Assembly (NCBI GenBank): GCA_937968065.1
Contig: CALBUD010000068.1
Location: forward strand, 1 to 7,445
Reading direction: 5' to 3'
DNA from: Candidatus Iainarchaeum sp.
GTDB lineage: Archaea > Iainarchaeota > Iainarchaeia > Iainarchaeales > CSSED10-239
Length of the DNA stretch: 7,445 nt
Shown: positions 60 through 7,431 of the stretch, in pieces
Numbering within the stretch: position 1 is the stretch's first letter
How the letters are laid out: the number at the start of each line of letters is the position of its first letter
Made by a program: the position numbers and the translations under genes
The notes under the pieces: model-generated
Told to the model about the DNA's origin: nothing
What the model saw: only the letters and a program-made list of their open reading frames with translations
Database searches by the model: none

Positions 60-719
60 ATGGATGCTGAAAATATACCACGAAGAGAAAGAAGACACTA
101 TAGAATTTATAAAGATGGAAAAATTATTTATTCTCAGGTCCCTGTTGATAAATCTTTAAAAAAAGAATCTATAAATAATTATACCTCTACAGATTCTGAA
201 GATACTAAATTTAAAAAATCATTATTAAACATTGATGAAAAAAAAAATATTGAAGATGTTGACAAAGATAAAATTAAGAAAGTATTACAGACATTATCAG
301 ATATTATTGCTCCTGATGTTGATGCTGTTTCTGAAGCTATTTATAATCAAATAAAAAATGATGACTATTATGATGAGTTTAATAAAAAAGATATTCAAAA
401 GACAATTAAAAGTAGTAAACATTATAGAGCTTCAAAAAACGAAGATTCCAGCGAAAATGAAGTAATTGATTCTGATAATATTAAATCATTAGTTGAAGAT
501 GTTTTTTTACAATTACAAAATGAAAATATTAAAACAAATTCTGAAAAGAAGAAAGAAAAAATAGAACCTAAAAAAGAAAAAAAATCTGTAAAAACCATTA
601 AAAAAGAAGAAGATTCTGTTTCTAAAAAATCAAAAAAAGAAGATTTAGATTTTAAAGATCTTTTAGATGAAGATGATTCTGAAGATAGCTCTGAAGATGA
701 TTTAGGTCTTAAATTTTAA
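60..719 (+). CDS. hypothetical, highly charged (K/E/D/S-rich), probably disordered soluble protein
   Basis: ATG..TAA ORF of 219 aa with no hydrophobic segment and no Cys. The C-terminal third is a K/E-rich tract (KKKEKIEPKKEKKSVKTIKKEED) followed by an acidic tail (DEDDSEDSSEDDLGLKF). I recognise no family. It is the only ORF on this strand and is convergent with the cluster. Confidence 0.55.
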   Translation: MDAENIPRRERRHYRIYKDGKIIYSQVPVDKSLKKESINNYTSTDSEDTKFKKSLLNIDEKKNIEDVDKDKIKKVLQTLSDIIAPDVDAVSEAIYNQIKNDDYYDEFNKKDIQKTIKSSKHYRASKNEDSSENEVIDSDNIKSLVEDVFLQLQNENIKTNSEKKKEKIEPKKEKKSVKTIKKEEDSVSKKSKKEDLDFKDLLDEDDSEDSSEDDLGLKF

Positions 720-1465
720 TCTTCAGTATACTCTTTACATCTTAAATTATTTTCTTCATCTAAAATATATTCAGAGTTTATCTTTATAGAAGAAGGCCAA
801 ATTGTAAGATTTGCAACTGCATTTATGTTATCTGTAGTGCCTCTAACCGTATATCTAAAAATCATAGGTGTTGAAGAAGAATATATTTTATTTGCATTTT
901 GAACTAATGTTCTTACAGGTGAGATGCTTAAAGGATTACATAAGAAATATTTTGATTCAATTTGATTATCATTTAGTTCATTAATTTTTAACATAAAATA
1001 AATAAATTCATCATCATTTCTATTTTCTAAATAAAAAATATAATCGTAATTAGATAGAGGATACATGATTGATTTAATTGTGTGAAAAAGATTATATTTT
1101 GCAATATCTCTATCATTAGGAAGAGATGCATCTGATAATTCACTAATATCTTCACTTGCACCTATTTTTTTATCTGGAAGAAAATCTGTTTTTAAAGCTG
1201 TAATTAAATAATCTGTTTCAAAAGTATTTTCTGAATAAATATTTTTTCCAAAATCAAGAGGTATATCTGTATAGAAAATAGTTTTTAAAGTTGAGTTTGT
1301 ATACTCTTTAAAATAAAGATTATTTATTGAAAGATCAATTCTTTCTCCATAGGTTGCAGAAAATTTAAATAATAGAACAGATAAGGCAACAATTATAGTT
1401 AGAAAAAACAAAGAATCTGTCATTGCAGCTTGGCCTTTATTTTTTTTTAGTTCTATTAATTTCAT
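716..1465 (-). CDS. prepilin-like protein with archaeal class III signal peptide (249 aa; largest pilin-like ORF and last gene of the cluster)
   Basis: The N-terminus is MKLIELKKNKG|QAAMTDSLFFLTIIVALSVLLF: a basic leader, K-G|Q-A, then about 20 hydrophobic residues. It has two Cys (C176, C243), both in the predicted external domain. The gap to the upstream gene is 6 nt. The C-terminal domain is unrecognised. Confidence 0.7.
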   Translation of the reverse strand: MKLIELKKNKGQAAMTDSLFFLTIIVALSVLLFKFSATYGERIDLSINNLYFKEYTNSTLKTIFYTDIPLDFGKNIYSENTFETDYLITALKTDFLPDKKIGASEDISELSDASLPNDRDIAKYNLFHTIKSIMYPLSNYDYIFYLENRNDDEFIYFMLKINELNDNQIESKYFLCNPLSISPVRTLVQNANKIYSSSTPMIFRYTVRGTTDNINAVANLTIWPSSIKINSEYILDEENNLRCKEYTED

Positions 1466-1471
1466 ATCTTT

Positions 1472-1999
1472 CTATTCCCAAATAATTATATATAATCTTT
1501 TTGGAGAGGTTTTACCATCTTGTCTTTGTAAAGTTAAAGGATAAAGAAAATTAATTATCTTATGTGATCGAATATCAATTTCATCTAGATTATCATTGCA
1601 CATATAATAATTATAATTGTTTAAATTAGGATCAATTTCTGAAAAAACAAAATCTTCATAACTGTTTTTAGATCTTGTTATTTTTTCTAAAGATATTAAT
1701 TCAAATTGTTCTGTATCTAAGGGGAGATCTACTAAAAAAGCATTCCATTTTTTTGTGGTTTTAATATTTTCACATTTTTCCATGAAATGATCATAATCAA
1801 TAATAACAGGATCTGATTTTAATTGCATTGATATCTCAACTGCCTCTTGATTTAAATTAAATAATTTATTTTTTGCATTATAATCATTAAAAACATTTAA
1901 AAAAACAGCAAAAAATATTACAAGACCTACAAATATTGGTATAAGACTTGGAAGATCATCTCCGATTGCTCCAATAAAACCTTTTTTATTTTTTATCAT
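1472..1999 (-). CDS. N-terminally membrane-anchored pilus-associated protein, possible atypical prepilin (175 aa)
   Basis: The N-terminus is MIKNKKG|FIGAIGDDLPSLIPIFVGLVIFFAVFL. The K-K-G leader resembles the neighbouring pilins, but residue +1 is Phe and an Asp-Asp pair precedes the hydrophobic core. It has two Cys (C76, C134). The gap is 6 nt on each side. The stop codon is TAG. Confidence 0.5.
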   Translation of the reverse strand: MIKNKKGFIGAIGDDLPSLIPIFVGLVIFFAVFLNVFNDYNAKNKLFNLNQEAVEISMQLKSDPVIIDYDHFMEKCENIKTTKKWNAFLVDLPLDTEQFELISLEKITRSKNSYEDFVFSEIDPNLNNYNYYMCNDNLDEIDIRSHKIINFLYPLTLQRQDGKTSPKRLYIIIWE

Positions 2000-2005
2000 A
2001 TTTTA

Positions 2006-2653
2006 TCAATTTAAAACAGCTGTACAAAAGTTTTGTTTACAAATAATATCATTATCAGGATCAAAACTATCAGCATCACACACAAAATTTTTACAAGTAT
2101 CTATATTATTTCTTTTTTCACAAGGTAACAGATAATAATTGACTTCTTGATTTTTTACATTTTTTATAATCATTATTCTTGATTCATTTGTGTTTAATTT
2201 TCTTGGATCAAACAAAACTTTATTTTCATTTTCAGATTCATAAAAAACATAATTAGGGCCTGTATAAACAGATTCATAAAAATTTATTTTTCCTTCATAA
2301 TCAAGATTAAAAGCACCTAAAATTTTATCTTTTCTATAATCAGTGATATAAATAATTAAAGAATCATTATCTTGTAAAGAATATGTTTGAAAACCTAAAA
2401 CATAATTTATAGAATAAAGAGAAGAGGTACCTTGATTAATTCTTATACTTTTTGGAATATCAATAAATTTAATTGAACAATAACTATCTGCATCAATAAC
2501 AGATTTTATTTCTTTTCCAATTTTAAAAGCAAGTTCATAACTTTGTCTTGTCTTAAGATTATCATTTAAAGTATTCATAAAAAAGATTACAACAACTGCA
2601 ATTGCAGTTACAAAAATCAACATATTTACTTTTGATAAGGTAAATTCAAACAT
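2006..2653 (-). CDS. N-terminally anchored, Cys-rich extracytoplasmic protein of the pilus cluster (215 aa)
   Basis: The N-terminus MFEFTLSKVNMLIFVTAIAVVVIFFM has a single hydrophobic helix but no K-G/A cleavage motif. It has six Cys, five of them in the last 38 residues (C178-x8-C-x4-C-x12-C-x4-C210). An SD-like AGGTGAT lies 7 nt upstream of the ATG. The stop codon is TGA. Confidence 0.5.
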   Translation of the reverse strand: MFEFTLSKVNMLIFVTAIAVVVIFFMNTLNDNLKTRQSYELAFKIGKEIKSVIDADSYCSIKFIDIPKSIRINQGTSSLYSINYVLGFQTYSLQDNDSLIIYITDYRKDKILGAFNLDYEGKINFYESVYTGPNYVFYESENENKVLFDPRKLNTNESRIMIIKNVKNQEVNYYLLPCEKRNNIDTCKNFVCDADSFDPDNDIICKQNFCTAVLN

Positions 2654-2660
2654 TTATATA

Positions 2661-2667
2661 ATCACCT
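2661..2667 (-). promoter_or_regulatory. Shine-Dalgarno-like AGGTGAT overlapping the stop codon of the upstream gene
   Basis: The minus strand reads AGG-TGA-T, where AGG is the last codon and TGA the stop of 2662-3240. It is a 7-nt match to the GGAGGTGAT consensus, 7 nt upstream of the ATG at 2653. Confidence 0.45.
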
Positions 2668-3240
2668 AATTTTTACAAAACAAATATTGTGTATTTGTCC
2701 TGATGAACTTGATTTGTATATTTTATAGCTTCCAGAAGGTATTTTAGCATTAGGGTCTATAATATTTAAAACTTCTTCTCTTGAATCGTCATCTATTCCA
2801 CAATTAATTTTAGAATCTTCAAAAACTATGTTTGTTGGAAGATATGTACATACAGGTTGGATAGGATATTTATATTCATATCTTGCTTCATCTATATATT
2901 CATAATATAATAATATACAACTTGATCCAGAACCACAAAATCTTTCACAAACAGCTCTATCTGTTTCTTGTTTTAAATAAGTTCTTTCATAACTTTCATT
3001 ATAACATGCTTTTGTTGTAAATTCAATATTTCTGTAAGCTAAGTCTGATCCTAAAACAACATCTCTTAAAGCAGATATTAAATTACTAAAATCTTGTCTT
3101 TTATTTCCAAGACATGTATTTTCAGAAAGATTTTGTAAAGCATAAGTTCCTGCAATAATTACAAAAACCATAACAATAATTGCAACCAATAATTCAAATG
3201 GAGCGCTTACTTGTGCTTTTTGTTTTTTATTTTTAAACAT
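2662..3240 (-). CDS. prepilin-like protein with class III signal peptide, 8-Cys external domain (192 aa)
   Basis: The N-terminus is MFKNKKQKA|QVSAPFELLVAIIVMVFVIIAGTYAL (K-A|Q-V plus a hydrophobic helix). The Q-x-S start and Leu at +9 fit the Class_IIIsignal QxSxExxxL pattern best of all the ORFs. All eight Cys lie after the helix. A TATA-like box lies 23 nt upstream of the ATG. Confidence 0.7.
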   Translation of the reverse strand: MFKNKKQKAQVSAPFELLVAIIVMVFVIIAGTYALQNLSENTCLGNKRQDFSNLISALRDVVLGSDLAYRNIEFTTKACYNESYERTYLKQETDRAVCERFCGSGSSCILLYYEYIDEARYEYKYPIQPVCTYLPTNIVFEDSKINCGIDDDSREEVLNIIDPNAKIPSGSYKIYKSSSSGQIHNICFVKIR

Positions 3241-3263
3241 ATATTAAAAGATATTATAAGAAG

Positions 3264-3280
3264 TATTTAAAATAGTTTTC
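3264..3280 (-). promoter_or_regulatory. candidate BRE/TATA promoter giving a leaderless transcript for 2662-3240
   Basis: The minus strand reads GAAAAC-TAT-TTTAAATA. The last TATA base (3264) is 23 nt upstream of the A of the ATG (3240), which is the spacing expected if transcription starts at the ATG. No SD is present upstream of this ATG. Confidence 0.4.
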
Positions 3281-3289
3281 TTTTTTTAT

Positions 3290-3295
3290 AAAAAA
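3290..3295 (-). terminator. oligo-T tract (T6), possible partial archaeal terminator after the mini-pilin gene
   Basis: The minus strand reads GAATATTTTTTATA beginning 18 nt after the TAA of 3313-3510. Archaeal RNAP terminates at oligo-T runs. T runs are also common by chance in this AT-rich DNA. Confidence 0.3.
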
Positions 3296-3312
3296 TATTC
3301 TTTTAATCATAT

Positions 3313-3510
3313 TTAAGTTACTGGAACTTGAGAAGGAAGAGTTGCTTGTTTTGCTGAAGCTTTTACAGATTTATTAAACATTGGTTTTACAACAGCAATT
3401 AAGATTATAGCAACAATTGCAACTACAATTAAAAAGAAAACAGTGTTTGATTCTGCTTGGCCTTTTTGATCATCTAAGATTTCTTTTATTTTCTTTTTAA
3501 TTGTTTTCAT
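3313..3510 (-). CDS. mini-prepilin (65 aa precursor, about 48 aa mature); candidate major filament subunit
   Basis: The sequence is MKTIKKKIKEILDDQKG|QAESNTVFFLIVVAIVAIILIAVVKPMFNKSVKASAKQATLPSQVPVT: a basic leader, K-G|Q-A, an 18-20 residue hydrophobic helix and a short polar tail. It has no Cys and one N-x-S sequon (N46). A T6 run follows it on the coding strand. Confidence 0.65.
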   Translation of the reverse strand: MKTIKKKIKEILDDQKGQAESNTVFFLIVVAIVAIILIAVVKPMFNKSVKASAKQATLPSQVPVT

Positions 3511-3522
3511 ATATTTTCAAAT

Positions 3523-4053
3523 TTATTGTTTTACAGGAAAGATTATACAAACTCTAACTCCATCTTCAAAATCAGATATATCAAAATCTTCTCTAATTAT
3601 TGGAGTTGTACTTGATAAATAAGAATTTAATGACTCTTGTAATCTTTCTTTATTTGAATGACATAAAATACCAAATCTATAGGTTACCGTACTTTCATTT
3701 TTAATTTCTAAATCACCATTAATTAAAGTTCCAAAATCAAAAGTATAACCATTATCATAAAACCTTACTTGATCATAAGAAAGACCTGTACCTTGTGTTA
3801 CAGTATCTGTTCCGATTATTTTATCTCTTTTTCCTGAAACTTTTAAAGAATCAGTTAAAGATAATGCTCCTGGTTGATCTTGTTGAGTGTTTATTCTTTC
3901 TTTTATAGCTTCAATTACACGTCCAGTTCCTGGATTAATATTTGCAATAATAGGCATTAAAACACCTAAAAGAGCTAAAGCTACAACCGCAGCTATTAAA
4001 AGTTGAAATGTTGAAAAGGCTTGACCTTTATTATTTAAAGCTATTAACTTCAT
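3523..4053 (-). CDS. prepilin-like protein with class III signal peptide (176 aa)
   Basis: The N-terminus is MKLIALNNKG|QAFSTFQLLIAAVVALALLGVLMPII. It has two Cys (C131, C169). The strongest Shine-Dalgarno match in the window (GAGGTGA) lies 9 nt upstream of the ATG. It is an N-terminal paralogue of the 4646-5167 product. Confidence 0.75.
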   Translation of the reverse strand: MKLIALNNKGQAFSTFQLLIAAVVALALLGVLMPIIANINPGTGRVIEAIKERINTQQDQPGALSLTDSLKVSGKRDKIIGTDTVTQGTGLSYDQVRFYDNGYTFDFGTLINGDLEIKNESTVTYRFGILCHSNKERLQESLNSYLSSTTPIIREDFDISDFEDGVRVCIIFPVKQ

Positions 4054-4062
4054 ATATTCTAT

Positions 4063-4069
4063 TCACCTC
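4063..4069 (-). promoter_or_regulatory. Shine-Dalgarno sequence (GAGGTGA)
   Basis: This is a 7-nt match to the GGAGGTGAT consensus, 9 nt upstream of the ATG at 4053. It is conspicuous as a G-rich island in AT-only flanks. Confidence 0.55.
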
Positions 4070-4113
4070 AAATATTATAATATATATAATCATTAATTTT
4101 AAAGTCCAAAAGA

Positions 4114-4129
4114 TATTTAAATGTTTTTC
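4114..4129 (-). promoter_or_regulatory. candidate archaeal BRE/TATA promoter for the 3523-4053 / 3313-3510 pilin pair
   Basis: The minus strand reads GAAAAACA-TTTAAATA in the 77-nt gap. The TATA octamer is at 4114-4121, giving a predicted TSS near 4090 and a 5' UTR of about 37 nt that contains the SD. The same GAAAAC...TTTAAATA arrangement occurs at 3264-3280. Confidence 0.4.
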
Positions 4130-4130
4130 T

Positions 4131-4625
4131 TTAAAGAATTATTATGTTTTTTAAAATACTTACAAAAATTGTAAAAATTACAGATATAAAAAGCATAAAT
4201 AATAAATCTTTTAATTGAATACCTGTTCTTGGTTCTGTATAATCAAAAACTTTATTTTTATAAGAAACTCTTTTTCTAACAATAAATAAATTCCATAAAG
4301 AACCAAAGATAAAAGCTGTTATTGCCCAGATAACTGTTATTTTTAGATTGATATTTGCTATACTGTTTATAGATTTCCAAAAAAGAATTATAAAACCATA
4401 AGAGACACCTAAAGAAAAAAACATTGTTATAAATAATCTAACTCTTTTGTTAAAAAAAAAACTAATTGATTTATGGAAAAATAAAGATATTAAAAATAAT
4501 AAAGACATTAAAAGTATAATTATTGCTATAATCGCTAAAATAATAATACCAAAAAAATATCCAAAAATAAGAATGATGATTGCAAGAATAAAATATTTAA
4601 TGTTTCTTGTCCAATTACCTTTCAT
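4131..4625 (-). CDS. small polytopic membrane protein of unknown function (164 aa, about 5 TM)
   Basis: Long hydrophobic stretches are separated by K/R-rich loops (HKSISFFFNKRVR; RKRVSYKNKVFDYTEPRTGIQLKD). It has no Cys and only two Asp (D128, D140), both in a loop. It is co-directional with the cluster and lies 20 nt from the upstream pilin gene. Confidence 0.6.
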   Translation of the reverse strand: MKGNWTRNIKYFILAIIILIFGYFFGIIILAIIAIIILLMSLLFLISLFFHKSISFFFNKRVRLFITMFFSLGVSYGFIILFWKSINSIANINLKITVIWAITAFIFGSLWNLFIVRKRVSYKNKVFDYTEPRTGIQLKDLLFMLFISVIFTIFVSILKNIIIL

Positions 4626-4645
4626 AAATAATCATTTTATTTTTT

Positions 4646-5167
4646 TTAATTTCCAGCTGGTTTTTTATTAATGTACATTACACAGAAAAGATCTTCACAA
4701 CTATCAGGGTTTGGAATAGGTGCATTTGCACCGGTTGTAATTTCTGAATATATATTAATATTAGTTAAATCTCTTGAACTCATTCCACTTTTACCACACA
4801 CAAAATAAACATCTGTTTTTAAATATTTTTTTTGAATTTGAACTCCATAACTTTCTTTTAGAATACCAGGACCTACAATAAAACCAAAACAACCAGGTTC
4901 TAAGTTTCCAAGCTGTTCATATTTTGCATGAGAAATAATTCCTGAAACTAAAACATCTTCAACAGCAAAAGGTTTTTCCATACTTACAATTGGACTGTTA
5001 ATTGCAGATAAGAAAGAATCTTCTATTTTTTGATTACTAATAATAATTGCTTGATTGTTTGTTTTATTTACCATTACAAGAATAATTCCTAAAATAGCTG
5101 TTGCAACGATAAATGCAATTAATAACTGATATGCTTCAAAAGCTTGTCCTTTTTTATTATTAATCAT
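4646..5167 (-). CDS. prepilin-like protein with class III signal peptide (173 aa)
   Basis: The N-terminus is MINNKKG|QAFEAYQLLIAFIVATAILGIILV. It has four Cys (C93, C124, C157, C162), all after the helix. It starts 20 nt downstream of the platform gene. Confidence 0.75.
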   Translation of the reverse strand: MINNKKGQAFEAYQLLIAFIVATAILGIILVMVNKTNNQAIIISNQKIEDSFLSAINSPIVSMEKPFAVEDVLVSGIISHAKYEQLGNLEPGCFGFIVGPGILKESYGVQIQKKYLKTDVYFVCGKSGMSSRDLTNINIYSEITTGANAPIPNPDSCEDLFCVMYINKKPAGN

Positions 5168-5187
5168 ATTTTTTCATAAAATTTTTT

Positions 5188-7431
5188 CTAAAATAACATA
5201 TTTGCTAAAATAGTTGTAACAATAAATAATATTGTTGCTATTGGAAGAGTTTGTGCAATTCTTACCTTTGTTAAAACTTTATTTTCTTGTTCAATCATTG
5301 TTGTAAAATAAACAATAATAATTACAATCTGTATAACATAGATTGCTACAATTATTAAAAAAGTAGTTGAATCAGCAAACTTTGAAATGTTTGAAGGATC
5401 AATAGAAGTTCCTAAACCAGAAATACTTGCAGTTCCTCCAGTTCCAAATCCTGCAACATTTAACCCTTCACCTATTCCAGCCATCATGCCTTCCATATCT
5501 TGCATAATATTACTTGAAGCTATAGAATTTAAAGTAGACATTACTATTCTTTGAAGAGCAGTTGTTATTCCAAGAACTATTGGTGCAATATACTTTGCCA
5601 TACTGTTTAATGTTCCTGTAATATCAGAAATTAAATTTGAAAGCATTTTTGAAACTTCATCTGTATTTCTAAGTTGCATAGAATAAGACATTAAAGTTTT
5701 TGCAGCAACAGAAACACCAAGTTGTACAGAATCAACAACTAAAAGCATAGCACTGTTAATTACTCTTGAAGGATTATTTTTTAAAGCTCCATAATTAGGA
5801 TCAAATAAAGAAGCTTTTAAGTTAAGCCCCATTATTCTTATGTTATCTAAAGTTTTTGCAAAAATATTTTGAGCAATTAAAGATCTTGGTAAAAATTCTT
5901 TTGTATGGTTTAAAGCTTCTTCAATAGGTTTGTTTTCTCCAAGTCTACTTGCAATAATATATAAAGCATCTTTAAACTCTTCTTCCATTTTTTGAGATTT
6001 TACTTGCACTCTTCTTTTATATATATTTGTTCCATAAAGATAAATTGATATTAAAAAACTAATTGTTAAAAGAGCACCATAAATAATAAAATAAGGAGTT
6101 GTGTTGTTTTCAGGTCTTAACCAAAAATCTCTTTCAGAAGCACATTGGAATTTAGAATCTTGTGCTTTAATTGATAATTCATCAAGAGTACATGTAAACT
6201 GAGCATCTGAAACTCTTCCTCCTTCTTCTATATATCCTTCATTAACTAAAATATTGTATTTCGTTTTTCCAAAAGTGCTTTGCAAAAAAATACTTGAAGA
6301 GAGTAAAAGAGCTGCAACAATTATCATAATTATAAAAATATTAAATCTCATACCTTTTACAGAAATTGTGTTTTTTGGAGGAATATCTGGATGATTGTCA
6401 GAAATTATTGGTGGAACATATGTTATTGGTCTTTCTCTAATTACTTTTTTTGCAAACAATAAACAACTTATAGGAATAATTATGTTATAGATTAAAATTA
6501 AATAAATTGGTCTTGCAAGAGCAGAGTCTGAGAAAGCAGAACCAACTGGAAGAATAATTATTAAAAGAAGAGGAAGAAGAATACCTAAATAAAACATAAT
6601 CATTGCTGGTTGAGAAAGACTTCTGGCATAATCTTCAAGTTTGTTTCTAATTGAAGATAAAGTATCTTCCATTGTTTTGTCAAGTATTTGATATCTTTTT
6701 GATTCTGAAACTTCAATAACACTTGATCTTATTTTCATTAAAGACTTTTTAAATTCTTGAGAAACATCTCCCCATTTATATGCAAGTTCATCAATAGCTT
6801 CAGAAACACTACCTTTAATTCCTACCTTAACTTCCCATAATAAAGTTTTAAGATCTTCTGCTATTTTTCCATGTCCATGACTTGCTGCAAATTCAATAGC
6901 TTTTTCTAAGTTTGGAACTAATTTCATTGACATTATCATATATCCTAAAATTTCTGGAATAAAAGTTAAAGCATATATTTTTTCTAAATTTACTTTTTTT
7001 TTTGGATAATTTTTGAAATAATTTATTAGATATAAATATAAAATTAAAGGTCCCCCAATTCCAAAAACATTTGGAACAAAAGAACTACCAAAAAAAGAAA
7101 CTAGTTTATCTGCTAAAAATAAATAGAATAATAAAACAATTAAAAATGTTAAAATAAATCCTGCAAAAATTACAAATTTATAAGCTGCAAAATATTCTTC
7201 AGCTTTTAAATCCCATTTTAAGAAATCAATTGAGTTTTGTAGTTTTTCATCATATTTTGTATTTGCTCCTAAAGATGGAAATTTTTTATATATTTTTTTA
7301 CAAAAAAGAACATATGCATTTTCTTGTTTTTTAGATAATCTATCTTCATCTAATGAAAAATCTCTAGATTCTACAGATATTGAACTATATATTTGACCTG
7401 GTGTTCTTGTTGGAGGTTTTATTTTATCCAT
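5188..7431 (-). CDS. FlaJ/TadC/PilC-family (T2SSF-type) polytopic membrane platform protein of a type IV filament system (747 aa)
   Basis: It has about 9 predicted TM helices. There are two cytoplasmic helical modules (residues ~150-272 and ~480-610), each with the T2SSF-like pattern: FIPEILGYMIMSMKLVPNLEKAIEFAA...GKIAEDLKTLLWEVKVGIKGSVSEAIDELA, and FKDALYIIASRLGENKPIEEALNHT...IAQNIFAKTLDNIRIMGLNLKASLF. Each module is preceded by a TM pair. The gene heads a run of prepilin genes. Confidence 0.72.
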   Translation of the reverse strand: MDKIKPPTRTPGQIYSSISVESRDFSLDEDRLSKKQENAYVLFCKKIYKKFPSLGANTKYDEKLQNSIDFLKWDLKAEEYFAAYKFVIFAGFILTFLIVLLFYLFLADKLVSFFGSSFVPNVFGIGGPLILYLYLINYFKNYPKKKVNLEKIYALTFIPEILGYMIMSMKLVPNLEKAIEFAASHGHGKIAEDLKTLLWEVKVGIKGSVSEAIDELAYKWGDVSQEFKKSLMKIRSSVIEVSESKRYQILDKTMEDTLSSIRNKLEDYARSLSQPAMIMFYLGILLPLLLIIILPVGSAFSDSALARPIYLILIYNIIIPISCLLFAKKVIRERPITYVPPIISDNHPDIPPKNTISVKGMRFNIFIIMIIVAALLLSSSIFLQSTFGKTKYNILVNEGYIEEGGRVSDAQFTCTLDELSIKAQDSKFQCASERDFWLRPENNTTPYFIIYGALLTISFLISIYLYGTNIYKRRVQVKSQKMEEEFKDALYIIASRLGENKPIEEALNHTKEFLPRSLIAQNIFAKTLDNIRIMGLNLKASLFDPNYGALKNNPSRVINSAMLLVVDSVQLGVSVAAKTLMSYSMQLRNTDEVSKMLSNLISDITGTLNSMAKYIAPIVLGITTALQRIVMSTLNSIASSNIMQDMEGMMAGIGEGLNVAGFGTGGTASISGLGTSIDPSNISKFADSTTFLIIVAIYVIQIVIIIVYFTTMIEQENKVLTKVRIAQTLPIATILFIVTTILANMLF

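What the first reader, a model, noticed from the sequence alone, without database searches (positions are those of the whole stretch)
716..7431. Compact nine-gene archaeal type IV filament module built from unrecognisable subunits
Seen in the sequence: nine co-directional minus-strand ORFs are separated by gaps of only 20, 20, 77, 12, 72, 8, 6 and 6 nt. The first is a T2SSF/FlaJ/TadC-like platform. Five ORFs have textbook archaeal class III signal peptides, two more are N-terminally anchored, and one is a small polytopic membrane protein. Established knowledge: archaeal type IV filaments (archaella, Aap, Ups and Epd pili) are built from a FlaI/PilB-family ATPase, a FlaJ/TadC/PilC platform, and prepilins processed by an A24-family peptidase (PibD/FlaK/EppA). 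Inference: seven different filament or accessory subunits share only their N-termini, and I recognise no known fold in their C-terminal domains. That looks like a specialised adhesion filament rather than an archaellum. In a very AT-rich, gene-dense genome it could be a cell-cell or host-attachment organelle of a DPANN-type archaeon. The ATPase should lie immediately right of 7445, because only 14 nt precede the platform ATG inside the window.
Basis: partly seen in the sequence, partly recalled or inferred. Interest (0 to 1): 0.8.

Follow-up and report, generated by a model that had tools for sequence, protein, structure and literature searches.

The report
DPANN archaeal pilus operon, motor elsewhere

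Summary
Nine co-directional minus-strand ORFs (716-7431) have gaps of exactly 20, 20, 77, 12, 72, 8, 6 and 6 nt.

g1 (747 aa) is a PilC/TadC/FlaJ-type platform. One T2SSF domain is hit directly, just below Pfam's cutoff. The second is shown by transitive homology (residues 492-620).

g2, g4, g5, g6 and g9 carry a [KR][GA]|Q class III leader conserved across orthologues. g8 has a different conserved KG|F N-terminus. g7 is N-anchored. g3 is a small polytopic protein found only in this clade.

None of 113 pilin-like orthologues hits a Pfam pilin model. A confident AF2 model of g4 (pLDDT 88) matches nothing in the PDB.

The operon (g1, g2, g4-g9) is the standard Ca. Iainarchaeum arrangement in over 40 genomes, where a ~760-aa T2SSE ATPase sits directly upstream.

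The window is the whole contig, so its own flank cannot be read. All five relatives with at least 58% platform identity have a divergent ferredoxin upstream and no ATPase. About 22 AT-rich loci carry an intact, isolated ATPase.

Verdict: a new member of a known kind, an Epd/Tad-like archaeal type IV filament. DPANN loci of this type were already noted in the literature. Interest is moderate.

The parts
5188..7431 (-). g1: 747-aa polytopic platform protein (PilC/TadC/FlaJ-type). First gene of the operon.
   Evidence: Pfam T2SSF E=5e-5. 25 of 30 family members hit T2SSF. AF2 model is all-helical with two similar helix bundles, pLDDT 76.7. Local Foldseek matches to PilC (3jc8_Ca) and to the GspF-like SpoIIIAB domain (6bs9_A, TMt 0.70). 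Directly follows a T2SSE ATPase in more than 40 related genomes.
6547..6948 (-). First T2SSF-homologous cytoplasmic helical bundle of g1 (residues ~162-295).
   Evidence: Direct Pfam hit over 165-295. N-half T2SSF hits of the distant relatives P0380, P0396 and P0462 map to residues 162-295.
5572..5958 (-). Second T2SSF-homologous bundle of g1 (residues ~492-620), shown only by transitive homology.
   Evidence: No Pfam hit in the window protein, and no internal repeat by hhalign. In P0367, P0372 (26.6 bits, above the cutoff), P0450 and P0476, Pfam calls T2SSF on the segment that aligns to window residues 492-620. The AF2 helix pattern H447-639 mirrors H142-301.
4646..5167 (-). g2: prepilin-like subunit, 173 aa, leader MINNKKG|QAFE. 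Its head domain is paralogous to that of g4.
   Evidence: [KR]G|Q in 28 of 38 orthologues. Head-domain hhalign g2-g4 93.5%, E=2.4e-7; four conserved Cys. No Pfam hit.
4131..4625 (-). g3: 164-aa polytopic membrane protein, found only in the window's clade. Function unknown; not a prepilin peptidase.
   Evidence: Present in WIN, L001-L003, L050 and L051 and absent from all ATPase-linked loci. Only one invariant acidic residue (D140) and no GxGD motif. Unrelated to the downstream ~170-aa membrane protein. dN/dS 0.23.
4054..4130 (-). 77-nt AT-rich intergenic gap upstream of g4, with GAGGTGA 8 nt before the ATG. Candidate internal promoter and strong ribosome-binding site.
   Evidence: Sequence read. 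The Shine-Dalgarno enrichment across the family does not discriminate between genes, so this is inference only.
3523..4053 (-). g4: prepilin, 176 aa, leader MKLIALNNKG|QAFSTFQLLIAAVVALA. Candidate main globular filament subunit.
   Evidence: [KR]G|Q in 30 of 35 orthologues, with a near-invariant mature N-terminus. Duplicated in several genomes. Highest dN/dS, 0.60. AF2 pLDDT 88.2, with a long kinked N-terminal helix plus an alpha/beta head. No PDB or BFVD fold match.
3313..3510 (-). g5: 65-aa mini-prepilin (mature ~48 aa) with no globular head. Flp/EpdE-like in size; alternative candidate for the major subunit.
   Evidence: [KR][AG]|Q in 26 of 29 orthologues. The most conserved pilin-like gene: 80%, 54% and 47% identity at platform identities of 83%, 60% and 45%. 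dN/dS 0.24. For comparison, the Epd major pilin MMP1685 is 74 aa, 62 aa mature (PMC3875500).
2662..3240 (-). g6: prepilin-like, 192 aa, leader MFKNKKQKA|QVSAPFE, with eight invariant cysteines in the head.
   Evidence: [KR][GA]|Q in 19 of 22 orthologues. Eight Cys columns are 100% conserved. Preceded by a 72-nt gap.
2006..2653 (-). g7: 215-aa N-terminally anchored protein with no class III leader (MFEFTLSK here; MLGF[TI]LSK in most relatives).
   Evidence: Four conserved Cys. Conserved position in the operon.
1472..1999 (-). g8: 175-aa bitopic protein with the highly conserved N-terminus [KR][GA]|[FY][IL]G[AP]IGDDLPSLIP. Either an atypical prepilin or a PilN-like adaptor.
   Evidence: Motif present in 16 of 16 orthologues. 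Its leader-coding DNA is 88-90% identical to those of g2 and g6 (repeats D1/D3). Two conserved Cys.
716..1465 (-). g9: prepilin-like, 249 aa, leader MKLIELKKNKG|QAAMTD. The largest subunit and the last gene of the operon.
   Evidence: [KR]G|Q in 13 of 13 orthologues. No Pfam hit. dN/dS 0.37.

Best explanation
The window carries the platform-plus-subunit operon of an Epd/Tad-like type IV filament of a Ca. Iainarchaeum-related DPANN archaeon.

Shown:
- g1 is a PilC/TadC/FlaJ-type platform with two T2SSF-homologous domains.
- g2, g4, g5, g6 and g9 are membrane-inserted precursors with a short basic leader ending in [KR][GA], a conserved Gln at +1 and a hydrophobic helix.
- The gene set and order are conserved across the phylum.
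- In most relatives a ~760-aa T2SSE ATPase is encoded directly upstream of g1.

Inferred (standard type IV filament mechanism):
- An A24-type prepilin peptidase, not encoded here, removes the leaders.
- A hexameric T2SSE ATPase docks on the two cytoplasmic bundles of g1. It uses ATP to drive extraction of mature subunits from the membrane and their addition at the filament base.
- Either g4 (globular, fast-evolving, often duplicated) or the head-less mini-pilin g5 is the bulk subunit.
- The fixed block g6-g9, together with g2, supplies minor or tip subunits and membrane-anchored accessory parts. g7 probably stays uncleaved. g8 may be an adaptor.
- Conserved cysteines indicate disulfide-bonded extracellular heads.

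In the window's own sublineage the system is split. The ATPase has moved to a separate, monocistronic locus and the small membrane protein g3 has been inserted after g2. The likeliest role is adhesion to surfaces or to other cells.
For: ORFs and gaps.

Platform:
- Pfam T2SSF in g1 and in 25 of 30 relatives.
- Second domain by transitive homology at residues 492-620.
- Two mirrored helix bundles in the AF2 model.
- Local fold matches to PilC and to the GspF-like SpoIIIAB domain.

Leaders: motifs conserved in orthologues, and shared leader-coding DNA.

Synteny:
- ATPase-g1-g2-g4-g5-g6-g7-g8-g9 occurs in Ca. Iainarchaeum, including I. andersonii and the complete AR10 genome.
- The ATPase has T2SSE and Walker A. 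Its closest solved relatives are afGspE2 (1.6e-31) and CpaF (4.6e-23), ahead of FlaI (5.7e-19).

Split system:
- Five of five relatives with at least 58% identity have ferredoxin/AP endonuclease upstream and carry g3.
- About 22 AT-rich loci have an isolated ATPase that keeps 207-216 of 235 invariant residues and Walker A GSRGAGKTS. One is from the same assembly as L003.

Selection: purifying on all nine genes. Extracellular heads: conserved Cys.

Epd parallels: +1 Gln, a short head-less major pilin, and an ATPase not in the pilin operon (PMC3875500; preprint 10.64898/2026.04.22.720090).
Against: - No ATPase and no prepilin peptidase can be shown for this organism, because the contig is only 7445 nt.
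- No A24 peptidase is linked in any of the ~130 related loci examined.
- The link between the isolated AT-rich ATPases and the window's clade is circumstantial. It rests on one shared assembly, similar GC and two complementary clades.
- The T2SSF hit in g1 is below Pfam's cutoff. The profile finds no PDB sequence. Whole-protein Foldseek E-values are not significant.
- No pilin-like protein hits Class_IIIsignal or Pilin_N.
- Cleavage, filament formation and the identity of the major subunit are untested.
- The Shine-Dalgarno evidence for high g4 expression does not discriminate between genes.
Confidence: 0.8

Rival explanations
1. It is a short pseudopilus or surface-display (bindosome- or T2SS-like) machine, not a long adhesive pilus. 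The pilin-like proteins would form a short membrane-proximal fibre that helps export or anchor the giant surface proteins encoded nearby.
For: In ATPase-linked relatives the locus is flanked by an archaeosortase-like gene (31 loci) and giant surface proteins (21 loci). A 1500-1770-aa Sec-signal protein follows the operon in every long locus. The ATPase has a weak hit to the bindosome ATPase BasE. The 2026 preprint argues that some archaeal type IV filament systems display substrate-binding proteins.
Against: The giant proteins have Sec-type rather than class III signals. No substrate-binding-protein domains were found in g2-g9. A head-less mini-pilin together with a fast-evolving globular pilin is typical of true pili. 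Linkage to surface proteins is not seen in the window itself.
Confidence: 0.12
2. It is a DNA- or nutrient-uptake (competence-type) filament that serves scavenging in a metabolically reduced DPANN cell, rather than adhesion.
For: The same core parts (platform, ATPase, prepilins) build competence pili in bacteria (established knowledge). The organism is a reduced-genome DPANN archaeon.
Against: No ComEA/ComEC-like, nuclease or DNA-binding domains were found in the operon or in the conserved neighbours examined. No second (retraction) ATPase was seen next to the system.
Confidence: 0.06
3. It is an archaellum (a swimming organelle), or a remnant of one.
For: The best NCBIfam hit of the family's ATPase is the FlaI model, and JGI annotated some homologues as FlaI.
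Against: The FlaI score is 134 bits against a cutoff of 550, about equal to the TadA-family hit. PDB similarity is stronger to afGspE2 and CpaF than to FlaI. No archaellin, FlaH, FlaF/G or FlaCDE/X genes occur in any locus. The mini-pilin and the +1 Gln are Epd/Tad-like features.
Confidence: 0.02
4. In this sublineage the operon is an orphaned, non-functional leftover because it has lost its ATPase.
For: No ATPase adjoins the operon in any of the five closest relatives.
Against: All nine genes are intact and under purifying selection (dN/dS 0.15-0.60). Order and motifs are conserved across the sublineage. Intact isolated ATPases exist in AT-rich relatives. In Methanococcus maripaludis the Epd pilin operon also lacks the ATPase and is functional (PMC3875500).
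Confidence: 0.03

Closest known systems
Epd (EppA-dependent) pilus of Methanococcus maripaludis; 'System 1' archaeal type IV filaments
   Same: Many different prepilins with 5-13-aa leaders ending in Gly and a conserved Gln at +1. A very short major-type pilin with no globular head (MMP1685, 74 aa; g5, 65 aa). The ATPase is not in the pilin operon, as in the window's clade. System 1 is reported in methanogens and DPANN (PMC3875500; preprint).
   Different: No subunit hits DUF361/Class_IIIsignal, and the +5 Glu is not conserved. The platform is one fused 747-aa gene rather than two genes. No dedicated peptidase (EppA) lies in the cluster. The head domains are unrelated. Here the platform is in the pilin operon.
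Bacterial Tad/Flp pilus (CpaF/TadA, TadB+TadC, Flp, TadE/F)
   Same: The ATPase is clearly related to CpaF (E=4.6e-23) and to the TadA-family model. It has a Flp-sized head-less pilin and several pseudopilin-like minor subunits. Two orthologues give faint Flp_Fap hits.
   Different: No Flp motif (G|xxxxEY). No secretin and no TadZ/RcpB/C-type parts. The platform is fused. The ATPase carries a ~370-aa N-terminal extension with a Cys/His motif.
DPANN type IV pilus loci with 'dark matter' pilins (Makarova, Wolf & Koonin 2019, Fig. 2A)
   Same: The same concept: a secretion ATPase and TadC flanked by unrecognisable proteins with signal peptides, predicted to be diverse pilins (PMC6393860).
   Different: The figure could not be viewed, so I could not tell whether it shows this particular family.
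Sulfolobus Aap/Ups pili and Haloferax PilA pili
   Same: Archaeal type IV filaments with FlaI-like ATPase, TadC-like platform and class III prepilins processed by PibD (established knowledge).
   Different: Those loci have only one or two pilins, which have beta-sandwich heads and match Pfam/arCOG pilin models. Here there are seven or eight subunits, none hits those models, and the g4 model matches no solved pilin.

Membership tests
Type IV filament (TFF) superfamily machine | Polytopic platform protein with two T2SSF (GspF/PilC/TadC/FlaJ) domains | tested here: met
   Domain 1: Pfam T2SSF E=5e-5, 23.7 bits, just under the 25.2-bit cutoff; 25 of 30 relatives hit. Domain 2: transitive, because Pfam T2SSF in four distant relatives maps to window residues 492-620. 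The AF2 model shows two mirrored helix bundles. Caveats: no direct internal repeat and no PDB sequence hit.
Type IV filament (TFF) superfamily machine | T2SSE/FlaI/PilB-family hexameric ATPase belonging to the system | tested here: inconclusive
   Absent from the window, which is the whole contig. Adjacent to the platform in more than 40 relatives. Absent from the upstream flank in the five closest relatives. Intact isolated ATPases occur in ~22 AT-rich loci, probably of the same clade.
Type IV filament (TFF) superfamily machine | Subunits with class III (prepilin) signal peptides: a short basic leader, Gly/Ala at -1, then a hydrophobic helix | tested here: met
   The motif is present in g2, g4, g5, g6 and g9 and conserved in 13-38 orthologues each. 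Actual cleavage was not tested. No FlaFind tool was available, so a rule-based check was used.
Type IV filament (TFF) superfamily machine | A24-family prepilin peptidase (PibD/FlaK/EppA) in the genome | not testable with these tools
   The genome of this organism is not available. None is encoded in the window or in any related locus examined. g3 is not one, having no GxGD motif.
Archaeal pilin families in Pfam (Class_IIIsignal/DUF361 PF04021, Pilin_N PF07790) | Significant match to the family model | tested here: not met
   No hit for any of the 113 pilin-like proteins of the family at E<=0.05, nor for the window's proteins at E<=1.
Epd pilus / archaeal TFF System 1 | Gln at +1 of the prepilins, and a head-less short major pilin | tested here: met
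   Gln at +1 is conserved in five subunit families. g5 is 65 aa with no head. Definition taken from PMC3875500 and the preprint.
Epd pilus / archaeal TFF System 1 | Two separate platform genes and a dedicated EppA peptidase in the cluster; ATPase in the corresponding phylogenetic clade | tested here: not met
   There is a single fused platform gene and no peptidase in any locus. The ATPase clade could not be assigned because no arCOG reference set or MacSyFinder models were available.
Archaellum | Archaellins plus FlaH/ArlH, FlaF/G and FlaCDE or FlaX beside FlaI/FlaJ | tested here: not met
   No such Pfam or NCBIfam hits in the window or in related loci. The ATPase scores 134 bits against a cutoff of 550 for FlaI.
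Bacterial Tad pilus | Flp motif pilin, TadB+TadC pair, secretin RcpA, TadZ | tested here: not met
   Only two faint Flp_Fap hits (E about 0.02) among 113 proteins. No other Tad components were found.

The most novel reading that the evidence does not exclude
The g2/g4 head is a pilin fold with no solved relative. The invariant block g6-g9, including the cysteine-rich g6 and the GPIGDDLPSLIP protein g8, forms a lineage-specific tip or adaptor complex. That would make this filament the cell-contact organelle of Iainarchaeota. In the split sublineage, g3 would act as a new membrane adaptor coupling the platform to an ATPase encoded elsewhere. A further possibility the data do not exclude: the leaders are removed by the presenilin/SPP-type GxGD protease found near the isolated ATPase, instead of a classical A24 peptidase.
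Probability: 0.15. Interest if true: 0.65.

Novelty: new member of a known kind. Interest (0 to 1): 0.4.

Why it matters
DPANN archaea are thought to depend on contact with other cells, yet their surface machinery is almost entirely 'hypothetical protein'. This work annotates nine such genes in one operon. It also shows that the same operon is a phylum-wide feature of Iainarchaeota and gives its canonical order.

Three further points follow. A sublineage has uncoupled the motor gene from the platform. There are two concrete candidates for the major subunit (g4 and g5). And at least one subunit head has no solved structural relative.

These results supply targets for cryo-ET, filament cryo-EM and metatranscriptomics. 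They do not reveal a new kind of machine.

Tried and rejected
1. Exact look-up of the window's platform on longer contigs found none on record. The window is the whole contig.
2. A profile of the platform against PDB sequences gave 0 hits.
3. hhalign of the platform's N-half against its C-half detected no repeat. This was superseded by the transitive Pfam evidence.
4. g3 as a cryptic A24 peptidase: rejected. It has no GxGD motif and only one invariant acidic residue.
5. g3 as a duplicate of the conserved downstream ~170-aa membrane protein, suggested by a weak BLAST hit: rejected, hhalign probability 0.2%.
6. Finding the clade's ATPase by matching contig lengths among ATPase homologues failed. 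The top 120 hits were all at least 65% identical and none was on a matching contig.
7. The genome-contig scan used N-terminal peptide patterns and so missed the AT-rich ATPases. The metagenome scan with catalytic-core patterns found them.
8. Shine-Dalgarno enrichment as a way to pick the major pilin did not discriminate: g4 65%, g7 60%, g8 75%.
9. Aligning the window's last 14 nt to the upstream regions of relatives was uninformative.
10. Foldseek of g4 against BFVD found nothing.
11. tRNA and Rfam scans of the window found nothing.
12. The cluster look-up returned no accession or organism name for the window.

Full report
OBSERVATION

They are g1 5188-7431 (747 aa), g2 4646-5167 (173), g3 4131-4625 (164), g4 3523-4053 (176), g5 3313-3510 (65), g6 2662-3240 (192), g7 2006-2653 (215), g8 1472-1999 (175) and g9 716-1465 (249). 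The gaps are 20, 20, 77, 12, 72, 8, 6 and 6 nt. A tenth ORF on the plus strand (60-719, 219 aa) converges on g9. There are no tRNA or Rfam matches.

A simple hydropathy and motif script gives the following:
- g2, g4, g5, g6 and g9 have a short basic leader ending in K-G or K-A, followed by Q and a hydrophobic helix.
- g8 has KG|F and then a 13-residue polar/proline stretch before its helix.
- g7 has only an N-terminal helix.
- g3 has about 4-5 TM segments.
- g1 is polytopic.

SOURCE AND FAMILY

The platform protein has 393 homologues. All come from metagenome-derived 'archaeon', 'Candidatus Diapherotrites' or 'Candidatus (I)ainarchaeum' records. The 100% match sits on a contig of 7445 nt, so the window is the entire contig. 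The DPANN guess is right.

THE PLATFORM (g1)

- Pfam T2SSF matches residues 165-295 at E=5e-5, at 23.7 bits against a 25.2-bit cutoff.
- 25 of 30 diverse relatives hit T2SSF individually.
- A family profile finds no PDB sequence.
- An hhalign test of the N-half against the C-half finds no internal repeat.
- An exhaustive profile search of 1.84 billion representatives shows a large family: 913 clusters at E<=1e-3 and 403 at E<=1e-30.
- Among ten distant members, Pfam places T2SSF in the N-half of three and in the C-half of four. One of the four, P0372, is above the cutoff.
- hmmalign maps the N-half hits to window residues 162-295 and the C-half hits to 492-620.

g1 therefore has the two T2SSF-homologous domains that define PilC/TadC/FlaJ platforms, the second by transitive homology.

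The AF2 model (pLDDT 76.7, pTM 0.68) is all-helical, with two similar series of helices: 142-301 and 447-639. Whole-protein Foldseek E-values are not significant. The local matches include PilC in the type IVa pilus machine model (3jc8_Ca) and SpoIIIAB (6bs9_A; TM 0.70 on the target, rmsd 3.6 over 130 columns). SpoIIIAB is a documented structural homologue of the GspF/PilC cytoplasmic domain (PMC10790770).

SYNTENY AND THE ATPase

In relatives with about 45% platform identity (L004, L005), a 761-764-aa T2SSE ATPase lies directly upstream and co-directional. A genome scan with that ATPase returned 44 loci. They include Ca. Iainarchaeum andersonii SCGC AAA011-E11 and the complete AR10 genome CP010424.1.

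Profile-based gene assignment shows the canonical order ATPase-g1-g2-g4-g5-g6-g7-g8-g9 across them, and again in metagenome loci. The ATPase is closest to Archaeoglobus GspE2 (2OAP, 1.6e-31) and CpaF (4.6e-23), ahead of FlaI (5.7e-19). It reaches no NCBIfam equivalog cutoff: FlaI 134 of 550 bits, TadA family 131 of 373.

The window's own sublineage is different. All five relatives with 58-83% platform identity on longer contigs (L001, L002, L003, L050, L051) share four features:
- A divergent 61-63-aa ferredoxin, AP endonuclease 2 and F420 ligase lie upstream of g1.
- No ATPase lies in the upstream sequence held (about 4 kb in L001, 10 kb in the others).
- The extra gene g3 is present.
- The ATPase-linked relatives lack g3.

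A metagenome scan with catalytic-core patterns then uncovered about 22 AT-rich loci (GC 0.23-0.33) with these properties:
- A 767-775-aa ATPase at 57-60% identity stands alone, with no platform or pilin genes within the sequence held on either side (up to 7-8 kb).
- Its conserved neighbourhood holds RPA, MCM, an S-layer protein, a PKD surface protein and, in 12 loci, a presenilin/SPP-type GxGD protease.
- The ATPases keep 207-216 of 235 family-invariant residues and Walker A GSRGAGKTS.
- One (L084, NPIE01004678.1) comes from the same assembly as L003 (NPIE01002285.1).

I infer a split system in this sublineage. The assignment of these ATPases to the same organisms is circumstantial.

THE SUBUNITS

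The leader motifs are conserved across orthologues:

| Gene | Motif | Orthologues with motif |
|---|---|---|
| g2 | [KR]G\|Q | 28 of 38 |
| g4 | [KR]G\|Q | 30 of 35 |
| g5 | [KR][AG]\|Q | 26 of 29 |
| g6 | [KR][GA]\|Q | 19 of 22 |
| g9 | [KR]G\|Q | 13 of 13 |
| g8 | [KR][GA]\|[FY][IL]G[AP]IGDDLPSLIP | 16 of 16 |

g7 starts MLGF[TI]LSK in most genomes and MFEFTLSK in the window's clade, with no basic leader.

The DNA around the starts of g2, g6 and g8 forms an 88-90% identical repeat family, reflecting a shared leader.

None of the window's eight small proteins, and none of 113 orthologues, hits Class_IIIsignal, Pilin_N or any other pilin model. The only trace is two Flp_Fap hits at E about 0.02.

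With the N-terminal helix removed, profile-profile comparison shows that the g2 and g4 heads are paralogous (93.5%, E=2.4e-7) and that all other pairs are unrelated. Conserved cysteines fit extracellular disulfide-bonded domains: eight in g6, four each in g2, g4 and g7, and two in g8.

An AF2 model of g4 built from 64 homologues is confident (pLDDT 88.2, pTM 0.74). It has a long N-terminal helix with a break at residues 38-42, followed by an alpha/beta head. It has no significant match in the PDB (best E=0.19, TM<=0.25) or in BFVD. For g4, 'no recognisable fold' is supported. AlphaFold DB was not available.

All nine genes are under purifying selection against L001: g1 0.15, g5 0.24, g4 0.60. 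g4 is the fastest-evolving gene despite an invariant mature N-terminus, and it is duplicated in several genomes. That is the behaviour expected of an exposed filament subunit. g5 is the most conserved subunit and has no head, like the Epd major pilin and Flp.

g3 has a single invariant acidic residue and no GxGD motif, so it is not a hidden prepilin peptidase. It is also unrelated to the conserved downstream membrane protein.

MECHANISM

Shown: a two-domain T2SSF platform; five or six prepilin-type precursors; a phylum-wide conserved order; and linkage to a T2SSE ATPase in most relatives.

Inferred from the established type IV filament mechanism:
- A prepilin peptidase removes the leaders.
- A hexameric ATPase acts on the platform's cytoplasmic bundles to move mature subunits from the membrane into the base of a growing filament.
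- g4 or g5 is the bulk subunit.
- g2 and g6-g9 are minor, tip or anchoring components.
- The function is adhesion.

Rivals are given with their evidence in the rival-explanations section: a short display or secretion pseudopilus tied to the neighbouring giant surface proteins, a DNA-uptake filament, an archaellum, and a decayed remnant.

COMPARISON WITH WHAT IS KNOWN

The closest known system is the Epd pilus of Methanococcus, 'System 1' of the 2026 archaeal type IV filament survey. That survey reports System 1 in methanogens and DPANN.

Shared features: Gln at +1, many prepilins, a head-less short major pilin, and an ATPase outside the pilin operon (PMC3875500).

Differences: no DUF361 match, a single fused platform gene, no peptidase in the cluster, and unrelated heads.

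Makarova, Wolf & Koonin (2019) had already noted DPANN loci where an ATPase and TadC are surrounded by unrecognisable signal-peptide proteins 'suggested to be diverse pilins' (PMC6393860). The kind is therefore known. This family, its canonical order and its split variant are, as far as the searched literature shows, not described individually.

VERDICT

This is a real, conserved and probably functional type IV filament operon of an Iainarchaeota-type DPANN archaeon, and a new member of a known kind. Interest is moderate (0.4).

Noticed in passing
window 60-719 (+): A 219-aa K/E/D/S-rich protein with no TM segment and no Pfam hit converges on g9, and the stop codons overlap at 716-719. An orthologue occupies the same convergent position after the operon in L001, L003, L004, L005, L050 and L057, so the pairing is conserved although the protein looks like low-complexity filler.
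   Followed up: partly
L035, L038, L039, L042-L044, L052, L073 (ATPase genes): In several Iainarchaeota the T2SSE ATPase is ~1260-1300 aa because it carries an intein with a LAGLIDADG homing endonuclease (PF14528 and PF14890).
   Followed up: partly
L004 1-6470; L005 1-5404; L052 1-5104 and 28 further loci: ATPase-linked versions of the locus have a divergently transcribed short archaeosortase-like gene (PF09721; passes the TIGR04178 signature; 31 loci). Beyond it lies a giant (>2400 aa) CarboxypepD_reg/SpaA-like surface protein (21 loci). Together with the pilus genes this forms a cell-surface island.
   Followed up: partly
L001 13672-16500; L003 17697-22184; L004 18422-22346; L005 16849-21885; L050 18684-22283; L051 17995-22241: Every long locus has, just past the operon, a ~165-180-aa polytopic membrane protein followed by a 1500-1770-aa protein with a Sec-type signal peptide. 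This is a conserved pair of unknown function.
   Followed up: partly
L121 1654-2610 and 11 other isolated-ATPase loci: A presenilin/signal-peptide-peptidase-type GxGD intramembrane aspartyl protease (PF06550) lies a few genes from the isolated ATPase. It belongs to the same mechanistic class as prepilin peptidases. Whether it could process the leaders was not tested.
   Followed up: no
L004 7700-9994, L009 6001-8283, L097 8001-10313 (ATPase N-terminal ~370 aa): The family's ATPase has a long N-terminal extension with a conserved FDC-x2-C...C-x-[FY]-H motif near residues 26-47, suggestive of a small metal-binding module. It is retained in the isolated ATPases.
   Followed up: no
L001 11219-12836: The closest long relative has two extra genes between g9 and the convergent gene: one of 57 aa and one of 464 aa with a weak archaeal Pilin_N hit (E=3.4e-4). 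Both are absent from the window, so the subunit repertoire varies even at 83% platform identity.
   Followed up: no
L023 347-2816 and L082: Gene-order variants exist. In L023 the g5-g9 block is inverted and lies upstream of the ATPase. In L082, g7-g9 precede g1 and the ATPase follows g5.
   Followed up: no
window 1980-2008, 3223-3246, 5148-5176: A direct-repeat family of 24-29 nt at 88-90% identity marks the start codons and leader-coding regions of g8, g6 and g2. The leaders are conserved at the DNA level even though the rest of the genes are unrelated.
   Followed up: yes
L126 (GC 0.53): A GC-rich locus also has a stand-alone 748-aa ATPase with no platform within 8 kb. Detachment of the ATPase may therefore have happened more than once.
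   Followed up: no
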